The notes below the pieces were generated by a model. The model had not been told where the DNA came from, did not search any database, and saw only the letters and a list, made by a program, of their open reading frames with translations. This document shows, in pieces, positions 1 to 9,306 of a stretch of DNA of 10,751 nucleotides. The position numbers were made by a program, and so were the translations under genes. Location: the UHGV virus genome UHGV-1843114. One strand, written 5' to 3'. This DNA is from a virus. The stretch's first letter is position 1. Each line of letters starts with the position of its first letter.

Positions 1-458
1 ACCCGTCACCTAAAATCTACTCAGCGTCGGCAAAGGAGCCATGGGTTCTAGCAACTAACTTACCTGTTGAAATTCGAACACCCAAACAACTTGTTAATAT
101 CTATTCGAAGCGAATGCAGATTGAAGAAACCTTCCGAGACTTGAAAAGTCCTGCCTACGGACTAGGCCTACGCCATAGCCGAACGAGCAGCTCAGAGCGT
201 TTTGATATCATGCTGCTAATCGCCCTGATGCTTCAACTAACATGTTGGCTTGCGGGCGTTCATGCTCAGAAACAAGGTTGGGACAAGCACTTCCAGGCTA
301 ACACAGTCAGAAATCGAAACGTACTCTCAACAGTTCGCTTAGGCATGGAAGTTTTGCGGCATTCTGGCTACACAATAACAAGGGAAGACTCACTCGTGGC
401 TGCAACCCTGCTTACTCAAAATCTATTCACACATGGTTACGTTTTGGGGAAATTATGA
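1..458 (+). CDS. IS10-type DDE transposase, C-terminal ~152 codons (5' end lies outside the window)
   Basis: Reading frame is open from the window start (first full codon at position 3). Translation ...SASAKEPWVLATNLPVEIRTPKQLVNIYSKRMQIEETFRDLKSPAYGLGLRHS...NLFTHGYVLGKL matches the IS10 transposase tail from memory. Stop TGA at 456-458. Confidence 0.9.
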   Translation, partial: PSPKIYSASAKEPWVLATNLPVEIRTPKQLVNIYSKRMQIEETFRDLKSPAYGLGLRHSRTSSSERFDIMLLIALMLQLTCWLAGVHAQKQGWDKHFQANTVRNRNVLSTVRLGMEVLRHSGYTITREDSLVAATLLTQNLFTHGYVLGKL

Positions 459-471
459 GGGGATCTCTCAG
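1..471 (+). mobile_element. IS10-family (IS4 family) insertion sequence, 3' portion; the element continues beyond the window start
   Basis: Transposase C-terminus encoded in 1-458, and the characteristic IS10 terminus GGGGATCTCTCAG ends at 471 (reverse complement CTGAGAGATCCCC). Recognised from memory. The sequence differs at a few positions from the IS10 I remember, so it may be a variant. Confidence 0.9.
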
Positions 472-638
472 CACTTCGCCTCTATCAGGCATGATGCTGA
501 ATTTCTGAATCCCATAGCATCTGGCTGTTCTCCGGTACTGGTTACAGCAACAAAGCGGTCATGAAAGCAAACCTTGAACCCGTTGCGCTTAAGGAACTTG
601 TACGCAATCTGACAGAGTTCGTGGTGTGTTAACGCCAT
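472..638 (-). pseudogene. 5' fragment (55 native codons) of a PD-(D/E)XK-fold gene, possibly MmcB-like, truncated by the IS10 insertion
   Basis: Minus-strand ATG at 636-638 preceded by AAGGAG. It translates to MALTHHELCQIAYKFLKRNGFKVCFHDRFVAVTSTGEQPDAMGFRNSASCLIEAK and then runs straight into the IS10 terminus, which supplies the stop (the frame ends ...AAG TG|C TGA across the 472/471 junction). The PD...EAK spacing fits a PD-(D/E)XK nuclease motif. Too short to appear in the ORF track. Confidence 0.55.
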
Positions 639-2486: not shown

Positions 2487-3287
2487 TTACTTGATAAATC
2501 CTGACGCCTTTCCCCGCCTGTATTCCTCCATCAGCCACTGCGCCGGTGTTATTCCCCCAAGGGTGGCGGCGTTAGGCATGCACCCGAAACTTCGCCCTGG
2601 TGGATGGTAAACATCTCTCCCTGTGTCCGGAGGCGTACTCATGGGTTCTGGCTTTGCCTGTATGCTGATCACCGGATCGGGTATCTGCTGTCCGGAAGCC
2701 ACCTTTTTCGCCCAATCATCGAGCAGCCTGCGCGCGTGTTTCTCAACCTCAATCTCGCTAAGCTGGCGCTGATACATTGCACGGCGGGTATCACATACGA
2801 CCCAGTACATAACCGGATGTCGCCACGGGAATCTTTCGGGACCACCAGGATATAAACTTTTTTCCTTGCTGTACCGGTGAAACTCCGCCATCACATCGTC
2901 AATGGTGACGCCAAGAACCATCTTGCTGTCTTTACACCACTTGATGAATTGCCCTGGCGACGGCCAGAACGGAGACTCACTGGCGCGGGCGTGGCGCATA
3001 CCAGCAGAAACCTGTTCACGGGTTCGGATCCCCCCTTCGGCAAACGCAGCAATCCACTGCTGTTTTGCAGCAACTTCCTGCTCTGGCGTCTTCAGGTTGG
3101 TTACCACTGCCGCCGGAAACAGTTGTTTCAGCTGTTTGAAAAGGGCATCAACAAGCCTCTCTGCTGACATGTTCACCACGTTGTCATTGTTGGTGTACTG
3201 ATGCTCATAACCTGACATGCGAGAAAGGGCTTCTCCGTCACGGTTTTGTATCGCGGTAAAAACGTTGTTCACAAGAAATCCTCCCAT
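2487..3287 (-). CDS. Replication protein P-like (DnaB helicase loader)
   Basis: 266-aa ORF. By-eye alignment to lambda P from memory: ...QLFPAAV... / ...ATFPASL..., ...EGGIRTREQVSAGMRHAR... / ...ENGITTMEQVNAGMRVAR..., ...PFWPSPGQFIKWCKD... / ...PFLPSPGQFVAWCRE.... Start is uncertain: the ATG at 3285-3287 overlaps the O-like gene's 3' end; alternative ATGs at 3216-3218 and 3168-3170. Confidence 0.8.
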   Translation of the reverse strand: MGGFLVNNVFTAIQNRDGEALSRMSGYEHQYTNNDNVVNMSAERLVDALFKQLKQLFPAAVVTNLKTPEQEVAAKQQWIAAFAEGGIRTREQVSAGMRHARASESPFWPSPGQFIKWCKDSKMVLGVTIDDVMAEFHRYSKEKSLYPGGPERFPWRHPVMYWVVCDTRRAMYQRQLSEIEVEKHARRLLDDWAKKVASGQQIPDPVISIQAKPEPMSTPPDTGRDVYHPPGRSFGCMPNAATLGGITPAQWLMEEYRRGKASGFIK

Positions 3288-4084
3288 GCTTCAGGGCTGT
3301 TCCAGTGCGGAACGTTGTTATCAGGTAATGTTGATTGCTTCTGTCTGCTAATCTGCAGCCGCCTTGCCAGCTTCTGCTCCCACTGTGCCTGATGGTATGC
3401 CTTACCCTCAGCCATCCAGTAAATTCTGAACTCTGCAAGTTCCTGTGCCGTTGGCAGACTGTCCAGGTAGATCCCCTGCAATGAGCTTTTCCGAAGAAAG
3501 TCATCTGATGGCTGCCATTGTTCATGCATGACAAATTTGCCTAATTGCCCTGGCCCACCAGGAGGAACAAAGTTATTCATCACGGCGTTGTTTGCGCCGG
3601 GGTCATGATGCACAGAATCCCCGTTTTTTGTCCTGCTCTCCCTCTCTTGGTTAAATGACTGGTTATATGACTGGTTCTGGATCCCGTTTTTGGGATCATT
3701 CAACATCCCGTTTTTGGGATCATTCAACATCCCGTTTTTGGGTATATTCCCGTTTTCGGTAACATTACCGTTTTCGGGTTCATTGCCCCCCTCTCGGTTG
3801 CCTTTAATGTTCCCGTTTTTGGTTATATTAAGAGAGAAAACCCGCACTCTTTTTGTCGCTCCCTTTCTCTCCCCGGTATCTGAAATAAGCCCCATTTTCA
3901 TGAGCGATATAAGTCCGGCCTGCACGGTTTTTTTATTCAGGCAAGTGTCTTTAACGAGGCGTTCTATGCTGGGGTAGCAGAGGTTATATTCATCGGCTCT
4001 GTCAGCCATCGAGAGCAGTATGAGCTTTAATGACGAGCTACCTGGATCTGTCTCCCAGGCCCAATCTGTTGCATGTCTGCTCAT
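3269..4084 (-). CDS. Replication initiator (O-like position): N-terminal HTH domain, iteron-encoded Asn/Gly-rich linker, DnaT-like C-terminal region
   Basis: 271-aa ORF, SD GGAG 9 nt upstream of the ATG at 4082-4084. N-terminus MSRHATDWAWETDPGSSSLKLILLSMADRADEYNLCYPSIERLVKDTCLNKKTVQAGLISLMKMGLI matches the HTH pattern of phage replication initiators (memory). Sits immediately upstream of the P-like gene and contains the iteron array. Confidence 0.8.
   Translation of the reverse strand: MSRHATDWAWETDPGSSSLKLILLSMADRADEYNLCYPSIERLVKDTCLNKKTVQAGLISLMKMGLISDTGERKGATKRVRVFSLNITKNGNIKGNREGGNEPENGNVTENGNIPKNGMLNDPKNGMLNDPKNGIQNQSYNQSFNQERESRTKNGDSVHHDPGANNAVMNNFVPPGGPGQLGKFVMHEQWQPSDDFLRKSSLQGIYLDSLPTAQELAEFRIYWMAEGKAYHQAQWEQKLARRLQISRQKQSTLPDNNVPHWNSPEAWEDFL
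3618..3830. repeat. Putative origin of replication: iteron array inside the initiator gene
   Basis: Seven copies of the core tCCCGTTTT(T)GG, starting near 3618, 3681, 3705, 3729, 3748, 3765 and 3810; three are exact 24-bp tandem units ATCCCGTTTTTGGGATCATTCAAC. Also a 10-bp tandem ATGACTGGTT at 3655-3664 and 3667-3676. Same layout as lambda ori inside gene O. Confidence 0.65.
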
Positions 4085-4099
4085 GATTAATCTCCGCTA

Positions 4100-4300
4100 T
4101 CAGCTTGAATGTTGTGGGGAGGAATTAATCATGATCTGCTTAATCTCTGCCCTGATACGACGGTTTGATTCCATGGTGCACTCAACACAGTGTCCGTTGT
4201 AAACCCAGCGTTCACTGTCATGTCCGTGCTTACATGTTTTTCCGGTGTAGTAGCGTTTAAGTCCGCGCTTTGCGGCATCAATACGTGTAATGATTTCCAT
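4100..4300 (-). CDS. Small putative zinc-binding protein (66 aa) at the cII position
   Basis: ATG at 4298-4300 with AGGG about 6 nt upstream. MEIITRIDAAKRGLKRYYTGKTCKHGHDSERWVYNGHCVECTMESNRRIRAEIKQIMINSSPQHSS contains C-x-H-x-H...H-C-x-x-C. The ORF track extends it to a TTG at 4363, which I consider less likely. Confidence 0.55.
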   Translation of the reverse strand: MEIITRIDAAKRGLKRYYTGKTCKHGHDSERWVYNGHCVECTMESNRRIRAEIKQIMINSSPQHSS

Positions 4301-4379
4301 GGTAAGCCCTGTTATTAGTATTGGGATTACGGTCATTTTGTGCTGACACAAAAAAAAGATCAACCAGATTTGGTTTTTT

Positions 4380-4396
4380 ATTACCTTTGAGGTACG
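4380..4396. promoter_or_regulatory. Operator-like site ATTACC-tttga-GGTACg between the terminator and the Zn-ribbon gene
   Basis: Left half-site perfect, right half-site 4 of 6. Same motif family as the repressor/cro intergenic sites. Confidence 0.4.
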
Positions 4397-4409
4397 AATA
4401 GATATGAAA

Positions 4410-4429
4410 AGACCGCCGGATGGCGGTCT
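4410..4429 (-). terminator. Intrinsic terminator downstream of the cro-like gene (tR1-like position)
   Basis: Perfect 8-bp stem AGACCGCC / GGCGGTCT with a 4-nt loop. On the minus strand it is followed by TTTTCATATC. No T-run follows it on the plus strand. Confidence 0.6.
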
Positions 4430-4450
4430 ACAGAGGGTTGTGGCTGGATA

Positions 4451-4681
4451 TCATGAGTAGAAGAAGTATGCCAGTTCTGCTTTTGAGCGCAGCCATTGTC
4501 TTGTTTTACAGGCTTTAAAAAGCCCATTCATCAATACCTTACCTGGCATTTTGCGCTTACCTGTTAAGTGAGTCTGGATATAGTGACTCGTCGTTCCGGC
4601 TTCCTGTGCGAAGGCTTCACGCTCATCCGGAGTAAGTGCAAGCCAGTGCTTTTTGAAATCGAAATGTCCGTTATCGCTCAT
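4451..4681 (-). CDS. Cro-like small HTH DNA-binding protein
   Basis: 76-aa ORF transcribed divergently from the repressor gene, with three operator copies in the shared intergenic region. Putative HTH around ...EAFAQEAGTTSHYIQTHLTGKRKMP.... Family assignment is tentative. Confidence 0.7.
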   Translation of the reverse strand: MSDNGHFDFKKHWLALTPDEREAFAQEAGTTSHYIQTHLTGKRKMPGKVLMNGLFKACKTRQWLRSKAELAYFFYS

Positions 4682-4716
4682 AGCTATTGCCTGATATTTA
4701 TTTCAGATAATAAATA

Positions 4717-4781
4717 TTCACCCATAAGGTAACAAAAATCAAGGATAGTTACCTATGAGGTGCATTTACCTGTTGGGTAAT
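4717..4781. promoter_or_regulatory. OR-like tripartite operator and divergent promoter region between the cro-like and repressor genes
   Basis: Three copies of the 17-bp motif: 4717-4733 tTCACC-cataa-GGTAAc, 4748-4764 gTTACC-tatga-GGTGCa, 4765-4781 tTTACC-tgttg-GGTAAT. A candidate minus-strand -35 TTGATT lies at 4736-4741 (read on the minus strand) with the first site in its spacer. Confidence 0.65.
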
Positions 4782-4835
4782 ATTGCTTTAAATTGAATCA
4801 TCTACTGATTCATATATGAGGCGATTTTCCAGAAA

Positions 4836-5420
4836 ATGAAAAGTATCCAGGACGTCCGCAGGCAAAATCTCAACGACTTGATCGACCGTGAATTCAATGG
4901 TGTTCAGACGCGGATGGCAGAAAAACTTGGAACTCAGGCAAATCTGGTAAACCGCTGGGCTCTTGGCAAGAAGGTTATCGGCGACCAGGTTGCACGAAAA
5001 ATTGAAGCTGCCGCCAATAAACCCCGTAACTGGCTTGATATTGATCGTTCGCTTTCTCAGGAGGGTTTTCAGCCTGTCGGCCCGAGCGATATAGGTCAGC
5101 TGGCGGCTCACAACCTGGAACGCTGGATGAGCGAAAGCCGCGACCTTTCAACACAGGGAAAACTTCACCGCGCATCCGGCGTCGCCCAGGTGACAATCAG
5201 CCGCCTGTTAAACAATGAGGTCAGCGTTTCCATTTCCACTCTGGAGAATGTTGCATCCGCATTCGGGCGTCACGGATATGAACTACTGATTCACCCGCAC
5301 GACCCTGCGACTATCAACTATGACCGCTCACGCTACGCATTGTTACCCGAAACCGAGAAAGCAAAGATCGAAAGTTACATTGAATTTGTCATCAACCAGA
5401 ACGAAAAAAGCAAACAATAA
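4836..5420 (+). CDS. Prophage immunity repressor (CI-like position), two HTH motifs, no LexA/S24-type autocleavage domain
   Basis: 194-aa ORF divergent from the cro-like gene. HTH-like segments QTRMAEKLGTQANLVNRWALGKK and ASGVAQVTISRLLNNEVSVS. No Ala-Gly/Cys-Gly cleavage site with a downstream Ser...Lys dyad was seen. Followed by a strong terminator. Confidence 0.75.
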   Translation: MKSIQDVRRQNLNDLIDREFNGVQTRMAEKLGTQANLVNRWALGKKVIGDQVARKIEAAANKPRNWLDIDRSLSQEGFQPVGPSDIGQLAAHNLERWMSESRDLSTQGKLHRASGVAQVTISRLLNNEVSVSISTLENVASAFGRHGYELLIHPHDPATINYDRSRYALLPETEKAKIESYIEFVINQNEKSKQ

Positions 5421-6028: not shown

Positions 6029-6924
6029 TGCAGAACGCTGGAATCATGGATAGAACAAAATACATCGGAGGAAGCGATGTTGCAGGGATTCTTGGAATTA
6101 GCCCATGGCGCACCCCGCTTGAGGTTTATCTGGATAAGGTCCAGCCACGTGTCAAACCAGTAGACCCAAGCAAGCAGAAAGTTTTCACGCGTGGCCAGCG
6201 TATGGAGCCATACGTAATAGACCTGCTTTCTGAGGAAACAGGGATGGAAATCGTTCATCGCGGAAACCGCTATATCCACCGTGATTACGATTTTATTGCA
6301 GCTGAGATCGATGCAGAAGCAGCGTCAGGCGAGAACATTGAGATCAAAACAGTTAGTCCGTTCAAAGCCAAAGAATGGGGAGAAATCCAGACAGATGCAA
6401 TTCCTGTGCATTACACGGCCCAGGCCATGCACGGGTTGATGGTTACAAACAAACAGGTATGCGTTTTCGGTGTGCTTATCGGTGGCGACGACTTCCGAAT
6501 CTATCGGGTTGAGCGTGATGAAGAAACTATCCAGGCGATCTTAGAAAAAGAAATCGCTTTCTGGGACCGAGTGAAAAATCTTAACCCGCCGGAAGCTACC
6601 AGCGTAAGCGATGTATCGCTGATGTTTGAGAAAGATGCAGGGACAAGTATCGAGGCTGACGGAAAGGCACTCGCACTATTCAACGATCTACGAGACATGA
6701 AGTCACGCAGAAAATCACTGGAAGAAGAAATAGCTATATCAGAAGAGAAGCTGAAGATGTACATGCAAGAGCACTCAGTCCTGACCCTGGACGGAAAGCC
6801 GCTCTGCACATGGAAATCTCAGATCAGCAACAGATTCGACCAGAAGCTATTCCAGTCAGTACACCCTGAGTTATTCGAAAAATTCAAAACAACAACGACA
6901 CAACGCGTCTTCAGAATGAAGTAA
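6025..6924 (+). CDS. YqaJ-type viral exonuclease (lambda Exo-like recombination exonuclease)
   Basis: Motifs ...YIGGSDVAGILGISPWRTPLEVY... and ...IEIKTVSPFKAKEWGE...VHYTAQAMHGLMVTNK...FWDRV... match the YqaJ-like PD-(D/E)XK recombinase family (memory). Directly upstream of recT. Start is 6025 or 6028 (or 6046). Confidence 0.85.
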   Translation: MMQNAGIMDRTKYIGGSDVAGILGISPWRTPLEVYLDKVQPRVKPVDPSKQKVFTRGQRMEPYVIDLLSEETGMEIVHRGNRYIHRDYDFIAAEIDAEAASGENIEIKTVSPFKAKEWGEIQTDAIPVHYTAQAMHGLMVTNKQVCVFGVLIGGDDFRIYRVERDEETIQAILEKEIAFWDRVKNLNPPEATSVSDVSLMFEKDAGTSIEADGKALALFNDLRDMKSRRKSLEEEIAISEEKLKMYMQEHSVLTLDGKPLCTWKSQISNRFDQKLFQSVHPELFEKFKTTTTQRVFRMK

Positions 6925-6933
6925 GGAGAAAAA

Positions 6934-7956
6934 ATGTCTATCAATGCACTTAAGGCAGCGGCTACCGGTAACCAAGTTGCACATCATAATGAGAAACCAA
7001 CAACTCTGGCCGGACTTCTGGCAGACCCAAAAATTAAAGCTCAGATGGCTTTGGCACTTCCAAAGCACATGACAGCAGACCGTCTGGCGCGCATAGCAAC
7101 CACAGAGATCCGAAAGGTTCCAAAACTTGCATCATGCGACCAAGCCAGCTTCCTGGGGGCAATTATGCAATGTGCCCAATTGGGTCTTGAACCAGGCGGA
7201 GCTCTTGGACACGCTTACCTGATACCGTTCGACAAACGCCAGAAAGTAAATGGAAGATGGGAAACCGTATCTACAGAAGCACAGCTGATTATCGGCTATC
7301 GCGGAATGATTGACCTTGCCCGCCGCTCTGGGCAGATCCTGAGTATCTCGGCTCGTACCGTACATACAAACGACAAATTCAGCTACTCATACGGCCTGGA
7401 AGAAACGCTCGAGCATTTACCTTGCGAAACAGGTGACCGCGGAGAATTAACGCACGTTTACGCCGTTGCACGACTGAAAGATGGCGGAGTCCAATTTGAA
7501 GTTATGAGCCGGGCAGACATTGAGAAAGTTCGTGCACTGAGCAAAGCCGGTAGCAGTGGCCCATGGGTTGATCACTTCGATGAGATGGCTAAAAAAACAG
7601 TAATTCGCCGACTATTCAAATATCTTCCTGTTTCTATTGAAATGCAGAAGGCTGTTGTTATGGATGAGCGCGCTGAAGCTGGACTTAGCCAAGATAACGC
7701 AGCTGTTATCACTGGTGAATATTCCGTAGTTGACGATGAGCGTCAACACCTGTCGCCAATTTCAGATTCAGAACGAGAAGAAGCTCGAGAATATATCATC
7801 GCGATACTTAATAGCCTGGATCCATCTGCTGAAGATGCAAAAACGATGTTCAAGCGCGCTGAAAATGAGATTAACACCATGGCTGAAAAGCTCGGTGATG
7901 AATATCACCAAAAATTCATGATGACGCTTAACGATATGCGTCCAGAATTCGAGTAA
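6934..7956 (+). CDS. recT: RecT-family single-strand annealing recombinase
   Basis: 340-aa ORF with SD AAGGAG 7 nt upstream. RecT-like segments ...GHAYLIPFDKRQKVNGRWET...LIIGYRGMIDLARRSGQ.... Paired with the YqaJ-type exonuclease. Confidence 0.9.
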   Translation: MSINALKAAATGNQVAHHNEKPTTLAGLLADPKIKAQMALALPKHMTADRLARIATTEIRKVPKLASCDQASFLGAIMQCAQLGLEPGGALGHAYLIPFDKRQKVNGRWETVSTEAQLIIGYRGMIDLARRSGQILSISARTVHTNDKFSYSYGLEETLEHLPCETGDRGELTHVYAVARLKDGGVQFEVMSRADIEKVRALSKAGSSGPWVDHFDEMAKKTVIRRLFKYLPVSIEMQKAVVMDERAEAGLSQDNAAVITGEYSVVDDERQHLSPISDSEREEAREYIIAILNSLDPSAEDAKTMFKRAENEINTMAEKLGDEYHQKFMMTLNDMRPEFE

Positions 7957-8363: not shown

Positions 8364-8663
8364 GTGAGAAAGTTAAGCCGACTTGAAAAATATCACATGA
8401 ACAAGGTTTCAATGCGCAGTCCGTCAAAGATTGTCGCCGTTACTCCTGCGGCGATAGAGATCGAAAAACGCGCGATTGAAAGAGAGAAAAAAGGGCAGTT
8501 CCGCATTGCCGCTCACCTTTGGCTTCAGTGTATGGATGTTGCTTCTGGTGATGTTGAGCGTGCAAGGATCGCGGTTCGCAGGGACCAATGTATCACAAAA
8601 GGTAACGGCCTTCGCCGTGGAGACTATAGCGGTATAGGATGTTGCGGGGTGGTTTATGACTAA
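8364..8663 (+). CDS. Small regulator, ANR-like (AraC negative regulator family) candidate
   Basis: ORF with uncertain start (GTG 8364, ATG 8397 or ATG 8415). ...FRIAAHLWLQCMDVASGDVERARIAVRRDQC... fits the ANR-family pattern as I remember it. Its 3' end overlaps the methyltransferase start by 8 nt. Confidence 0.5.
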   Translation: MRKLSRLEKYHMNKVSMRSPSKIVAVTPAAIEIEKRAIEREKKGQFRIAAHLWLQCMDVASGDVERARIAVRRDQCITKGNGLRRGDYSGIGCCGVVYD

Positions 8664-9306
8664 GAAATACACACTAATCTATGCAGATCCACCCTGGGTA
8701 TACCGGGACAAAGCCGCAGATGGTAATCGCGGTGCCGGTTTTAAATATCCGGTTATGAGTGTGCTGGATATCTGCCGCCTTCCTGTGTGGGATTTGGCCG
8801 ATGAAAACTGTCTGTTGGCCATGTGGTGGGTGCCAACACAACCACTCGAAGCACTAAAAGTTGTTGAAACCTGGGGATTCCGTCTGATGACGATGAAGGG
8901 CTTCACGTGGATAAAATGTGGTAGTCGACAACCAGATAAACTGGTTATGGGTATGGGACACATGACTCGCGCCAATAGTGAAGATTGCCTGTTTGCGGTA
9001 AAGGGAAAACTACCTACGCGCATTAATGCAGGGATCGTTTAGTCATTTACCGCACCGCGGCTTGAGCATTCAAGAAAGCCAGATATCGTTCGTGAAAAAC
9101 TTGTGCAATTATTAGGCGATGTTTCTCGCATTGAACTGTTCGCCCGCCAGACGTCTCATGGCTTCGATGTTTGGGGTAATCAGTGCGAAGACCCGGCAGT
9201 GCAACTACACCCTGGATACGCGTTGGATATTGGCGGATTAACAAATGCATTCAGCAATGCTCCGCTGTCACCAACAGACAACCAGGGGCGGGAGCGTGCT
9301 GCATGA
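8656..9306 (+). pseudogene. MT-A70-family DNA N6-adenine methyltransferase interrupted by a single in-frame TAG at 9040-9042
   Basis: The N-terminal ORF (8656-9042) carries the catalytic motif ADPPW. The same frame continues after the TAG as SFTAPRLEHSRKPDIVREKLVQLLGDVSRIELFARQTSHGFDVWGNQ..., which contains the family's conserved HSRKP and ELFAR...WGN motifs, to a stop at 9304-9306. The track splits it into two ORFs in the same frame. Confidence 0.75.

What the first reader, a model, noticed from the sequence alone, without database searches (positions are those of the whole stretch)
4100..4300. Cys/His-rich small protein in place of cII between the tR1-like terminator and the initiator gene
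At the position where lambdoid phages encode CII, this phage has a 66-aa protein with a C-x-H-x-H...H-C-x-x-C arrangement, suggesting a zinc ribbon. It does not resemble the helix-turn-helix CII that I know. It could be a different lysis/lysogeny regulator or a replication accessory factor.
Basis: partly seen in the sequence, partly recalled or inferred. Interest (0 to 1): 0.45.

Follow-up and report, generated by a model that had tools for sequence, protein, structure and literature searches.

The report
Small zinc-finger protein before phage initiator
The 66-residue Cys/His protein is a real, conserved early gene of phiV10/epsilon15-like prophages: a nuclease-free copy of a widespread, uncatalogued zinc module that phage HNH nucleases carry at their front end, sitting where related phages encode CII, with no tested function.

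Summary
Window 4300..4100 (minus strand) encodes a 66-aa protein. It lies between a terminator after the cro-like gene and a DnaT/HTH_36 replication initiator followed by a lambda-P-like gene.

The window is a phiV10/epsilon15-like (Uetakevirus) E. coli prophage. The ORF is PhiV10p42 (98.5% identical), which every source calls "hypothetical".

It is not CII. It has no Pfam, NCBIfam, PADLOC or PDB match and is a full-length member of PHROG 1081 (unknown function).

A profile search finds 13,579 related cluster representatives. Four residues are invariant (C23, H27, C38, C41; C-x3-H-x10-C-x2-C). About half the relatives carry one to five copies of the module ahead of an HNH/endonuclease VII domain.

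The AlphaFold model (pLDDT 88) is beta-beta-alpha, which fits a treble-clef-like finger better than a zinc ribbon.

The gene is under purifying selection. It keeps its place directly upstream of replication initiators in Enterobacterales and Pseudomonas prophages, often with overlapping stop and start codons. Edwardsiella phage Edno5, which has a homologous initiator, carries a true CII in that slot.

The function is inferred, not shown. Most likely it is a small zinc-dependent DNA-binding accessory or regulator of the replication cassette. A CII-like role is not excluded. Interest is modest.

The parts
4100..4300 (-). CDS of the 66-aa CHCC zinc-module protein (PhiV10p42 / epsilon15 gp40 orthologue; PHROG 1081). 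Proposed metal ligands are C23, H27, C38 and C41.
   Evidence: Translation. PHROG 1081 E=1.8e-42. 98.5% identical to PhiV10p42. Invariant ligands in 378 modules. AF2 model pLDDT 87.9. pN well below pS.
4307..4310 (-). Weak Shine-Dalgarno-like AGGG, 6 nt upstream of the ATG.
   Evidence: Read directly from the minus-strand sequence. Inferred.
4335..4363 (-). Promoter-like element TTGATC (4363-4358) - 17 nt - CAAAAT (4340-4335), downstream of the terminator and upstream of the zinc-protein gene.
   Evidence: It scores only 8 of 12 to consensus, so the scan did not report it. TTGAT and AAAAT are invariant blocks in an alignment of six diverged phages. The Providencia homologue has TGtATAAT at this place. 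The function is inferred.
4381..4394 (.). Operator-like site TTACCTTTGAGGTA (ACC-N5-GGT core) between the terminator and the promoter-like element. It has the same core as the three sites in the repressor/cro intergenic region.
   Evidence: Motif scan: 5 of the 11 ACC-N5/6-GGT sites in the window fall in 4363-4780. An identical ACCTTTGAGGT lies in the repressor/cro intergenic region of Providencia locus L101. Inferred.
4410..4429 (-). Intrinsic-terminator-like hairpin AGACCGCC-ATCC-GGCGGTCT followed by TTTCATATCT, after the cro-like gene ('tR1-like').
   Evidence: Scan. Annotated as a putative rho-independent terminator at the same place in phiV10. The stem is conserved in diverged phages.
4451..4681 (-). 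76-aa cro-like first gene of the operon, divergent from the repressor gene.
   Evidence: PHROG 35 'transcriptional repressor' 5.6e-13. 76% identical in SPC32H. No Pfam or PDB match.
4836..5420 (+). 194-aa prophage repressor with two HTH regions and no peptidase domain.
   Evidence: HTH_3 and YdaS-like hits. phiV10p40 is annotated as a repressor with two HTH motifs. The orthologous ZX5 ORF21 behaved as a repressor when overexpressed (PMC9782041).
3269..4084 (-). Replication initiator (N-terminal HTH_36, C-terminal DnaT domain). Its ATG lies 15 nt after the zinc-protein stop codon and is preceded by GGAG.
   Evidence: Pfam DnaT 1.1e-15 and HTH_36 1.8e-10. PHROG 1032 'replication initiation protein' 1.4e-108. 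Sequence.
3681..3830 (.). Iteron array (ATCCCGTTTTTGGG-type, 6-7 copies) inside the initiator gene: the presumed origin.
   Evidence: Direct-repeat families D1 and D2. The origin assignment is by analogy with lambda ori inside O (established knowledge). Inferred.
2487..3287 (-). Lambda-P-like helicase loader gene, the last gene of the replication cassette.
   Evidence: Pfam Phage_lambda_P 1.5e-56.

Best explanation
The gene encodes a small metal-binding nucleic-acid-binding protein, very probably zinc-binding. It has one copy of a ~42-residue module (short helix, beta-hairpin carrying C23-x3-H27, then C38-x2-C41 capping a helix) and a ~20-residue basic/amphipathic C-terminal helix.

The same module forms the only recognisable non-catalytic part of thousands of phage and prophage HNH/endonuclease VII proteins, in one to five copies. 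It is therefore most simply read as their DNA-targeting unit. The window protein is a nuclease-free derivative.

In epsilon15/phiV10-like phages, and in at least one other kind of Pseudomonas prophage, it is the first gene of the replication cassette (zinc protein, initiator, helicase loader). That cassette lies behind the terminator that follows cro. It probably has its own weak, operator-flanked promoter, and the gene is often translationally coupled to the initiator.

I propose that it binds phage DNA and acts as an accessory or regulator of the replication cassette, for example at or near the origin or at the cassette's own promoter. I do not think it is a CII homologue.

Shown: the gene is real and conserved; its family membership; the invariant ligands; its synteny; the absence of an HTH or CII signature.
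Inferred: zinc binding, DNA binding, the promoter, and the replication-linked role.
For: Identity:
- PHROG 1081 over the full length, E=1.8e-42.
- 13,579 related representatives; many of the best 150 have 2-5 matched stretches.
- C23, H27, C38 and C41 are present in 99-100% of 378 modules.
- 85 of 147 top relatives, and 34 of 73 motif-sampled ORFs from one genome per species, have an HNH-type tail. No other Pfam DNA-binding domain is present in them.
- Phage examples of the fusion: FoX3 gp02, Yong-M3-232, PAB2, SE1, Vibrio phages.
- AF2 model with pLDDT 87.9: helix 6-11, strands 16-18 and 30-32, helix 39-60.
- BFVD fold matches are to phage homologues, including endonuclease VII, HNH and a GIY-YIG intron endonuclease.

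A real gene:
- pN 0.11-0.28 against pS 0.64-0.83 among the closer orthologues.

Link to the replication cassette:
- The order repressor / cro-like / terminator / zinc protein / initiator is conserved in BUCT554, SPC32H, Phi05_2388B, three metagenomic or assembly loci, Providencia and Pseudomonas lundensis.
- Stop and start codons overlap or abut in L006, L090, L092, L094, L114 and L159.
- Compared with Phi05_2388B, 97% identity ends at 4358, just upstream of the zinc gene, and resumes inside P. The zinc gene therefore travels with the initiator block.
- In Pseudomonas locus L159 the zinc gene overlaps the start of an initiator that shows no significant pairwise similarity to the window's (PHROG 12556), followed by a DnaC/IstB loader. 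The P22-Cro-like gene there is 1.2 kb upstream with other ORFs in between.
- Promoter-like and operator-like elements lie between the terminator and the gene.
Against: - No experiment on this protein or any homologue was found.
- No solved structure resembles it, so DNA binding rests on domain-architecture logic alone.
- Homologous initiators work without it. Edno5 has CII in the slot and PPompW has a YdaT-like protein.
- Across seven loci its sequence identity tracks neither the initiator's N-terminal domain nor the repressor/cro pair. That argues against an allele-specific partnership with either.
- Adjacency to the initiator could reflect only operon position.
- Other short nuclease-free homologues sit in unrelated contexts (L166, L167, L175, L183).
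- The promoter-like element is weak (8 of 12 to consensus).
Confidence: 0.45

Rival explanations
1. It is a non-HTH functional analogue of CII: a zinc-finger transcription factor, made early after infection, that switches on repressor and/or integrase expression and so biases the phage towards lysogeny.
For: - It sits exactly in the slot where Edno5, with a homologous initiator, encodes a true CII. PPompW encodes a YdaT-like protein there.
- No other CII-like gene is seen in the window.
- It is small and basic, and probably binds DNA.
Against: - There is no homology to CII.
- The window and Phi05_2388B have 99-100% identical repressor and cro genes, yet their zinc proteins are only 50-60% identical. 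That is unexpected if the targets lay in the immunity region.
- In L159 it is separated from cro and abuts the initiator.
- The family is otherwise tied to nucleases, not regulators.
- The ZX5 study accounts for the switch with repressor, antirepressor and integrase, and did not test this ORF.
Confidence: 0.15
2. It is a remnant of a homing-type HNH endonuclease: the targeting module was left behind after loss of the nuclease domain. It is either neutral or acts as a decoy that occupies the recognition sites of related nucleases and so protects the phage genome.
For: - About half the family carries an HNH tail.
- Fused homologues sit at typical free-standing endonuclease positions: between terminase genes, within structural genes, and in deazaguanine-modification clusters.
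- The gene behaves as an independent mosaic unit.
Against: - It shows strong purifying selection and keeps a fixed length and position across Enterobacterales and Pseudomonas, with synonymous sites saturated.
- There is no trace of a decayed HNH region downstream; the initiator starts 15 nt after the stop codon.
- No HNH gene is annotated in phiV10.
Confidence: 0.15
3. It is a small zinc-finger protein that works through protein contacts rather than DNA. It could be a late-gene activator in the manner of P2 Ogr (RNA polymerase contact), or a modulator of a host replication or defence protein.
For: - No late-gene regulator is annotated in phiV10.
- Its size and metal site recall Ogr/Delta or Com-type phage zinc proteins (my own knowledge, not tested).
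- The long exposed C-terminal helix in the model could be an interaction surface.
Against: - There is no Pfam match to Ogr_Delta, zf-dskA_traR or any other family, and no PADLOC match.
- The conserved basic positions (R6, K15/R16, R31, R/K at 43-50) and the use of arrays in nucleases point to nucleic-acid binding.
Confidence: 0.1

Closest known systems
N-terminal Cys/His module of phage HNH / endonuclease VII proteins (unnamed; e.g. Xanthomonas phage FoX3 gp02, Synechococcus phage Yong-M3-232 HNH endonuclease, Pseudomonas phage PAB2 'endonuclease VII'; PHROG 1035)
   Same: Homologous in sequence. It has the same (I/V)I(S/T)R-EA-G-(R)YFTG-PC-x2-GH-x3-R-x6-C-x2-C signature and the same four invariant ligands.
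   Different: The window protein stops ~25 residues after the module. It has no helical linker repeats and no HNH catalytic domain.
PHROG 1081 (PhiV10p42, epsilon15 gp40, SPC32H_043 and relatives)
   Same: Full-length member (E=1.8e-42). It has the same size, the same position between the cro-like gene and the initiator, and 39-100% identity to the members compared.
   Different: Nothing substantive. The family has no assigned function.
Lambda CII / P22 C1 (Pfam Phage_CII, PF05269)
   Same: The same genomic slot (after cro and a terminator, before the initiator). This was shown directly in Edno5, which has a homologous initiator.
   Different: No sequence or predicted fold similarity: an HTH tetramer-forming activator versus a Cys/His beta-beta-alpha module. 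Functional equivalence is untested.
[quoted passage not shown]
   Same: The same architectural logic: small modules, single or in tandem, attached to HNH or GIY-YIG nuclease domains and presumed to give target binding (PMC5714182).
   Different: Not homologous to any of them. There are no NUMOD, AP2 or HTH Pfam hits in 147 relatives, and the ligand pattern differs.
Small phage zinc-finger regulators (P2 Ogr / P4 Delta, Mu Com)
   Same: Comparable size, four-ligand metal site, phage regulatory setting (my own knowledge).
   Different: No Pfam match. The ligand spacing differs (C-x3-H-x10-C-x2-C). A resemblance recalled from memory only.

Membership tests
Phage CII (PF05269) | Sequence match to the Phage_CII profile / helix-turn-helix core | tested here: not met
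   No Pfam hit at E<=0.1 apart from a spurious YneP hit at 0.096. The same scan does detect CII in Edno5_0054 at 1.1e-21. The AF2 model has no HTH.
Phage CII (PF05269) | Position between cro/tR1 and the replication initiator | tested here: met
   Window layout. Edno5 has CII in the same slot ahead of a homologous initiator.
Phage CII (PF05269) | Activates establishment promoters for repressor and integrase | not testable with these tools
   Needs genetics or transcription assays.
PHROG 1081 | Full-length match to the family profile | tested here: met
   E=1.8e-42, residues 1-66 against profile positions 1-66 of 67.
CHCC module of HNH-endonuclease N-termini (unnamed) | Invariant C-x3-H-x10-C-x2-C together with A9, G13, G20, G26 and R31 | tested here: met
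   All are present in the window protein. Their frequencies in 378 modules are 99-100% for the four ligands and 85-95% for the other five.
CHCC module of HNH-endonuclease N-termini (unnamed) | Binds zinc and DNA | not testable with these tools
   Inferred from ligand invariance and domain architecture only.
HNH / endonuclease VII nucleases (PF01844, PF02945) | His-Me finger catalytic domain | tested here: not met
   No HNH or Endonuclease_7 hit in the 66-aa protein. The protein ends 25 residues after the module. A weak PHROG 1035 hit covers only the module region.
Zinc ribbon | Two zinc knuckles, each on a beta-hairpin, within a three-stranded sheet | tested here: inconclusive
   The AF2 secondary structure places C38-x2-C41 at the N-terminus of helix 39-60 and C23/H27 in the loop between strands 16-18 and 30-32. 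That fits a treble-clef-like arrangement. The coordinates could not be inspected, and no PDB fold match was found.
Ogr/Delta and DksA/TraR-type phage zinc fingers | Pfam profile match | tested here: not met
   No hit.
Known anti-phage defence proteins (PADLOC) | Profile match | tested here: not met
   No hit.

The most novel reading that the evidence does not exclude
A DNA-targeting zinc module that originated in homing HNH endonucleases has been domesticated by temperate phages as a stand-alone regulator. It replaces the HTH protein CII in the cro-to-initiator slot and controls either the lysogeny decision or the firing of the phage origin. This would be a new class of phage developmental regulator, built on a fold with no solved structure.
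Probability: 0.15. Interest if true: 0.6.

Novelty: new member of a known kind. Interest (0 to 1): 0.33.

Why it matters
The gene is carried by about one in ten complete E. coli genomes, and by phages used as O157 and Salmonella tools (phiV10, SPN1S). No function is assigned to it anywhere.

Linking it to a very large, uncatalogued zinc-module family gives the gene a testable biochemical activity, namely zinc-dependent DNA binding. That family has at least 13,579 clusters at 50% identity, no Pfam or NCBIfam model and no solved structure. The link also flags a domain that annotation resources lack.

If the protein controls replication or lysogeny, it would fill a gap in the poorly understood early circuit of epsilon15-like phages.

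Tried and rejected
Searches that found nothing for the 66-aa protein:
- Pfam, NCBIfam and PADLOC scans.
- PDB sequence searches with two profiles, no hit even at E<=10.
- Foldseek against the PDB: nothing below E=5.
- The AFDB50 library was not available.
- Rfam on the whole window.

Literature:
- Full-text searches for the motif strings and for epsilon15/phiV10 regulation found nothing on this ORF.
- The ZX5 Uetakevirus paper tested only the repressor, antirepressor and integrase.
- The His-Me finger classification paper does not describe this module.

Scans that were uninformative or failed:
- The first viral-contig scan returned only near-identical E. coli prophages, so it gave no diverse synteny.
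- The genome scan with the diverse alignment A5 failed for lack of a conserved 7-mer and was repeated with A6.

Ideas rejected:
- A separate HNH partner gene in the same phage: none is annotated in phiV10.
- Co-variation of the zinc protein with the initiator's N-terminal domain or with the repressor/cro pair: no correlation in 21 pairwise comparisons.
- The longer 76-87-aa start used by some gene callers: the upstream codons are not conserved and carry stop codons in other phages.

Full report
**What is there.**
The six-frame ORF list and a direct translation show a 66-codon ORF on the minus strand. It runs from the ATG at 4300 to the TGA at 4102-4100 and encodes MEIITRIDAAKRGLKRYYTGKTCKHGHDSERWVYNGHCVECTMESNRRIRAEIKQIMINSSPQHSS.

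The surrounding layout on the minus strand is as follows:
- A 194-aa two-HTH repressor lies on the plus strand (4836-5420) and is transcribed divergently from a 76-aa cro-like gene (4681-4451).
- A terminator-like hairpin lies at 4429-4410.
- The 66-aa gene follows.
- An initiator with an HTH_36 N-terminus and a DnaT C-terminus follows (4084-3269; PHROG 1032, 1.4e-108).
- A lambda-P-like gene (3287-2487) and a DUF1064 gene come next.

**Where the window comes from.**
The region is 99.7% identical to prophages in E. coli CE10, IHE3034 and others. It is present in 541 of 5426 complete E. coli genomes. It is collinear with phage phiV10, genus Uetakevirus (epsilon15-like). The ORF is PhiV10p42 (98.5% identical), annotated as "hypothetical, similar to epsilon15p40". 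phiV10 also annotates the terminator at the same place. Every public source calls the exact sequence hypothetical or uncharacterised.

**It is a real gene.**
It matches PHROG 1081 (unknown function) end to end at E=1.8e-42. Orthologues 39-81% identical occur in:
- Enterobacter phage BUCT554 and Salmonella phage SPC32H;
- the unverified phage record Phi05_2388B;
- Klebsiella, Pantoea, Citrobacter and Providencia prophages;
- a Pseudomonas lundensis prophage.

Among six of these, non-synonymous differences per site are 0.11-0.28 (up to 0.47 for pairs involving SPC32H). Synonymous sites are near saturation at 0.64-0.83. Where dN/dS can be computed it is 0.05-0.24, or 0.43 against SPC32H. The longer 76-87-aa start that some gene callers use is not supported, because the upstream codons are not conserved.

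**What family it belongs to.**
Pfam, NCBIfam and PADLOC have no model for it. A profile of 22 orthologues was searched against 1.84 billion cluster representatives. It found 13,579 proteins at E<=1e-3 and 1,630 at E<=1e-10. Many of the best 150 have two to five matched stretches.

I re-extracted 378 module copies from 147 of these proteins. C23, H27, C38 and C41 are present in 99-100% of copies. G26, R31 and A9 are present in 93-95%. H25 is present in only 28%, and H37 is not conserved.

Architectures across the family:
- Of the 147 proteins, 85 end in an HNH-type domain. Pfam recognises HNH, HNH_5 or Endonuclease_7 in a subset, and no other DNA-binding domain is present.
- A less biased sample gives a similar split. 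A motif scan of one genome per species returned 80 loci, mostly Pseudomonadota. Of 73 complete ORFs, 34 have the HNH tail and 39 do not, and 70 have a single module.
- In sequenced phages the fused forms are annotated "endonuclease VII" or "HNH endonuclease". They sit where free-standing nucleases usually sit: between the terminase subunits in Xanthomonas phage FoX3, among structural genes in Vibrio phage 138 and Klebsiella phage JD001, and inside the deazaguanine-modification clusters of Salmonella phage SE1 and Pseudomonas phage PAB2.

**Predicted structure.**
AlphaFold2 with the orthologue alignment gives a confident model (mean pLDDT 87.9). It has helix 6-11, strand 16-18, strand 30-32 and a long helix 39-60. 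C23 and H27 lie in the loop between the strands. C38 and C41 lie at the N-terminal cap of the helix. That is a beta-beta-alpha, treble-clef-like arrangement rather than a classical zinc ribbon. I could not inspect the coordinates.

**Is it "in place of cII"?**
Positionally, yes. Edwardsiella phage Edno5 has an initiator whose N-terminal half is 50% identical to the window's. Its gene order is CI, Cro, a true Phage_CII protein (PF05269, 1.1e-21), initiator, P. PPompW phages have a YdaT-like protein in that slot. The window protein has no similarity to either.

**Which module does it travel with?**
Several observations tie it to the replication cassette:
- Against Phi05_2388B, 97% DNA identity runs from 6028 through the repressor, the cro-like gene and the terminator down to 4358. 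It is then lost across the zinc gene, the initiator and the first third of P, and resumes at 3017.
- The stop codon overlaps or abuts the initiator start in L006, L090, L092, L094, L114 and L159. In the window the gap is 15 nt.
- In Pseudomonas locus L159 the P22-Cro-like gene is 1.2 kb upstream with other ORFs in between. A PHROG-1081-type zinc gene there still overlaps the start of an initiator with no significant pairwise similarity to the window's (PHROG 12556, 4.6e-49), which is followed by a DnaC/IstB loader.

Other observations weaken the link:
- Across seven loci the zinc protein's identity correlates with neither the repressor/cro pair nor the initiator's N-terminal domain.
- Homologous initiators exist without it.
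- Other short nuclease-free homologues lie in unrelated contexts.

**Expression signals (inferred).**
Between the terminator and the ATG, six diverged phages keep the element TTGAT(C/A)-N16-17-(C/A/G)AAAAT. In the window this is 4363-4358 and 4340-4335. The Providencia homologue has an extended -10, TGtATAAT, at this place.

Just upstream, at 4381-4394, is an ACC-N5-GGT site of the same type as the three in the repressor/cro intergenic region. The cassette may therefore have its own repressor-controlled promoter in addition to read-through of the terminator.

**Most likely mechanism.**
The module is the only non-catalytic unit in thousands of HNH nucleases. It is used singly or in arrays, and it has conserved basic positions. 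The simplest reading is a zinc-dependent DNA-binding finger.

The window protein is a nuclease-free copy made together with the initiator. I therefore favour a DNA-binding accessory or regulatory role in the replication cassette (confidence about 0.45 for the whole statement). The rivals are a CII-like lysogeny regulator (0.15), a domesticated or neutral nuclease remnant or decoy (0.15), and a protein-contact regulator such as a late activator (0.1). None of these can be settled computationally.

**Literature.**
No paper in the library mentions the motif or this ORF. The only functional study of a Uetakevirus early region tested the repressor, antirepressor and integrase only (PMC9782041). A systematic His-Me finger classification lists NUMOD, HTH and AP2 modules but not this one (PMC5714182).

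**Verdict.**
The gene has long been annotated as hypothetical, so it is not a new object. The new points are its assignment to a very large, uncatalogued CHCC zinc-module family tied to HNH nucleases, and its consistent place at the head of replication cassettes. Interest is modest (0.33). It would rise if the protein proved to be a regulator of lysogeny or origin firing.

Noticed in passing
window 3681-3830: An array of 6-7 iteron-like direct repeats (ATCCCGTTTTTGGG-type, spaced 18-45 nt) lies inside the initiator gene and encodes its N/G/P-rich linker. It is presumably the phage origin, as in lambda O.
   Followed up: partly
window 4718-4782 and 4381-4394: Three ACC-N5-GGT (TTACC...GGTAA) operator-like sites lie in the repressor/cro intergenic region. 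A fourth lies between the terminator and the zinc gene. An identical ACCTTTGAGGT occurs in the repressor/cro intergenic region of Providencia prophage L101 (3578-3588).
   Followed up: partly
window 4358 (versus L094 2945): The recombination breakpoint with phage Phi05_2388B falls exactly at the end of the TTGATC -35-like hexamer. Identity resumes at 3017 inside the P-like gene. The exchanged block is therefore the zinc gene, the initiator and the N-terminal third of P.
   Followed up: yes
window 9040: The MT-A70 adenine methyltransferase gene (8656-9306) carries a C-to-T change relative to E. coli CE10 that turns Gln129 into a TAG stop. The gene is therefore probably inactive in this prophage.
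   Followed up: yes
window 1-497: This is the end of an IS4-family ISVsa5 (IS10-type) element with the 3' part of its transposase gene. Similarity to the CE10 prophage only begins at window position 1779. The IS end suggests the prophage right arm may be interrupted here; I did not map the junction.
   Followed up: partly
window 6029-7952: The recombination module here is a separate YqaJ-type exonuclease plus RecT. phiV10 has an unrelated 'recET fusion' at the same place, with no DNA similarity across this stretch. This is a module swap within otherwise 97-98% identical flanks.
   Followed up: partly
window 4836-5420: The prophage repressor has two HTH regions (residues ~21-61 and ~106-147) and no S24 peptidase domain. 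This fits induction through an antirepressor, as reported for vB_EcoP_ZX5, rather than RecA-mediated autocleavage.
   Followed up: no
window 4552-4565 and 4761-4774: A 14-nt repeat (TGCGCTTACCTGTT / TGCATTTACCTGTT) has one copy inside the cro-like coding sequence and one in the operator region. It may be an extra repressor half-site.
   Followed up: no
L009 2501-2989 (Salmonella phage SE1) and L005 2986-3429 (Pseudomonas phage PAB2): An HNH nuclease carrying the same zinc module is embedded in the 7-deazaguanine DNA-modification cluster, between the GTP cyclohydrolase gene and the DpdA-like transglycosylase gene, in two unrelated phages.
   Followed up: no
L093 3297-4536: In one Enterobacterales prophage an ANT antirepressor gene is inserted between the cro-like gene and the zinc gene, with overlapping stop and start. 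An extra 114-aa ORF separates the zinc gene from the initiator. L107 and L108 also have about 1 kb inserted between the zinc gene and the initiator.
   Followed up: no
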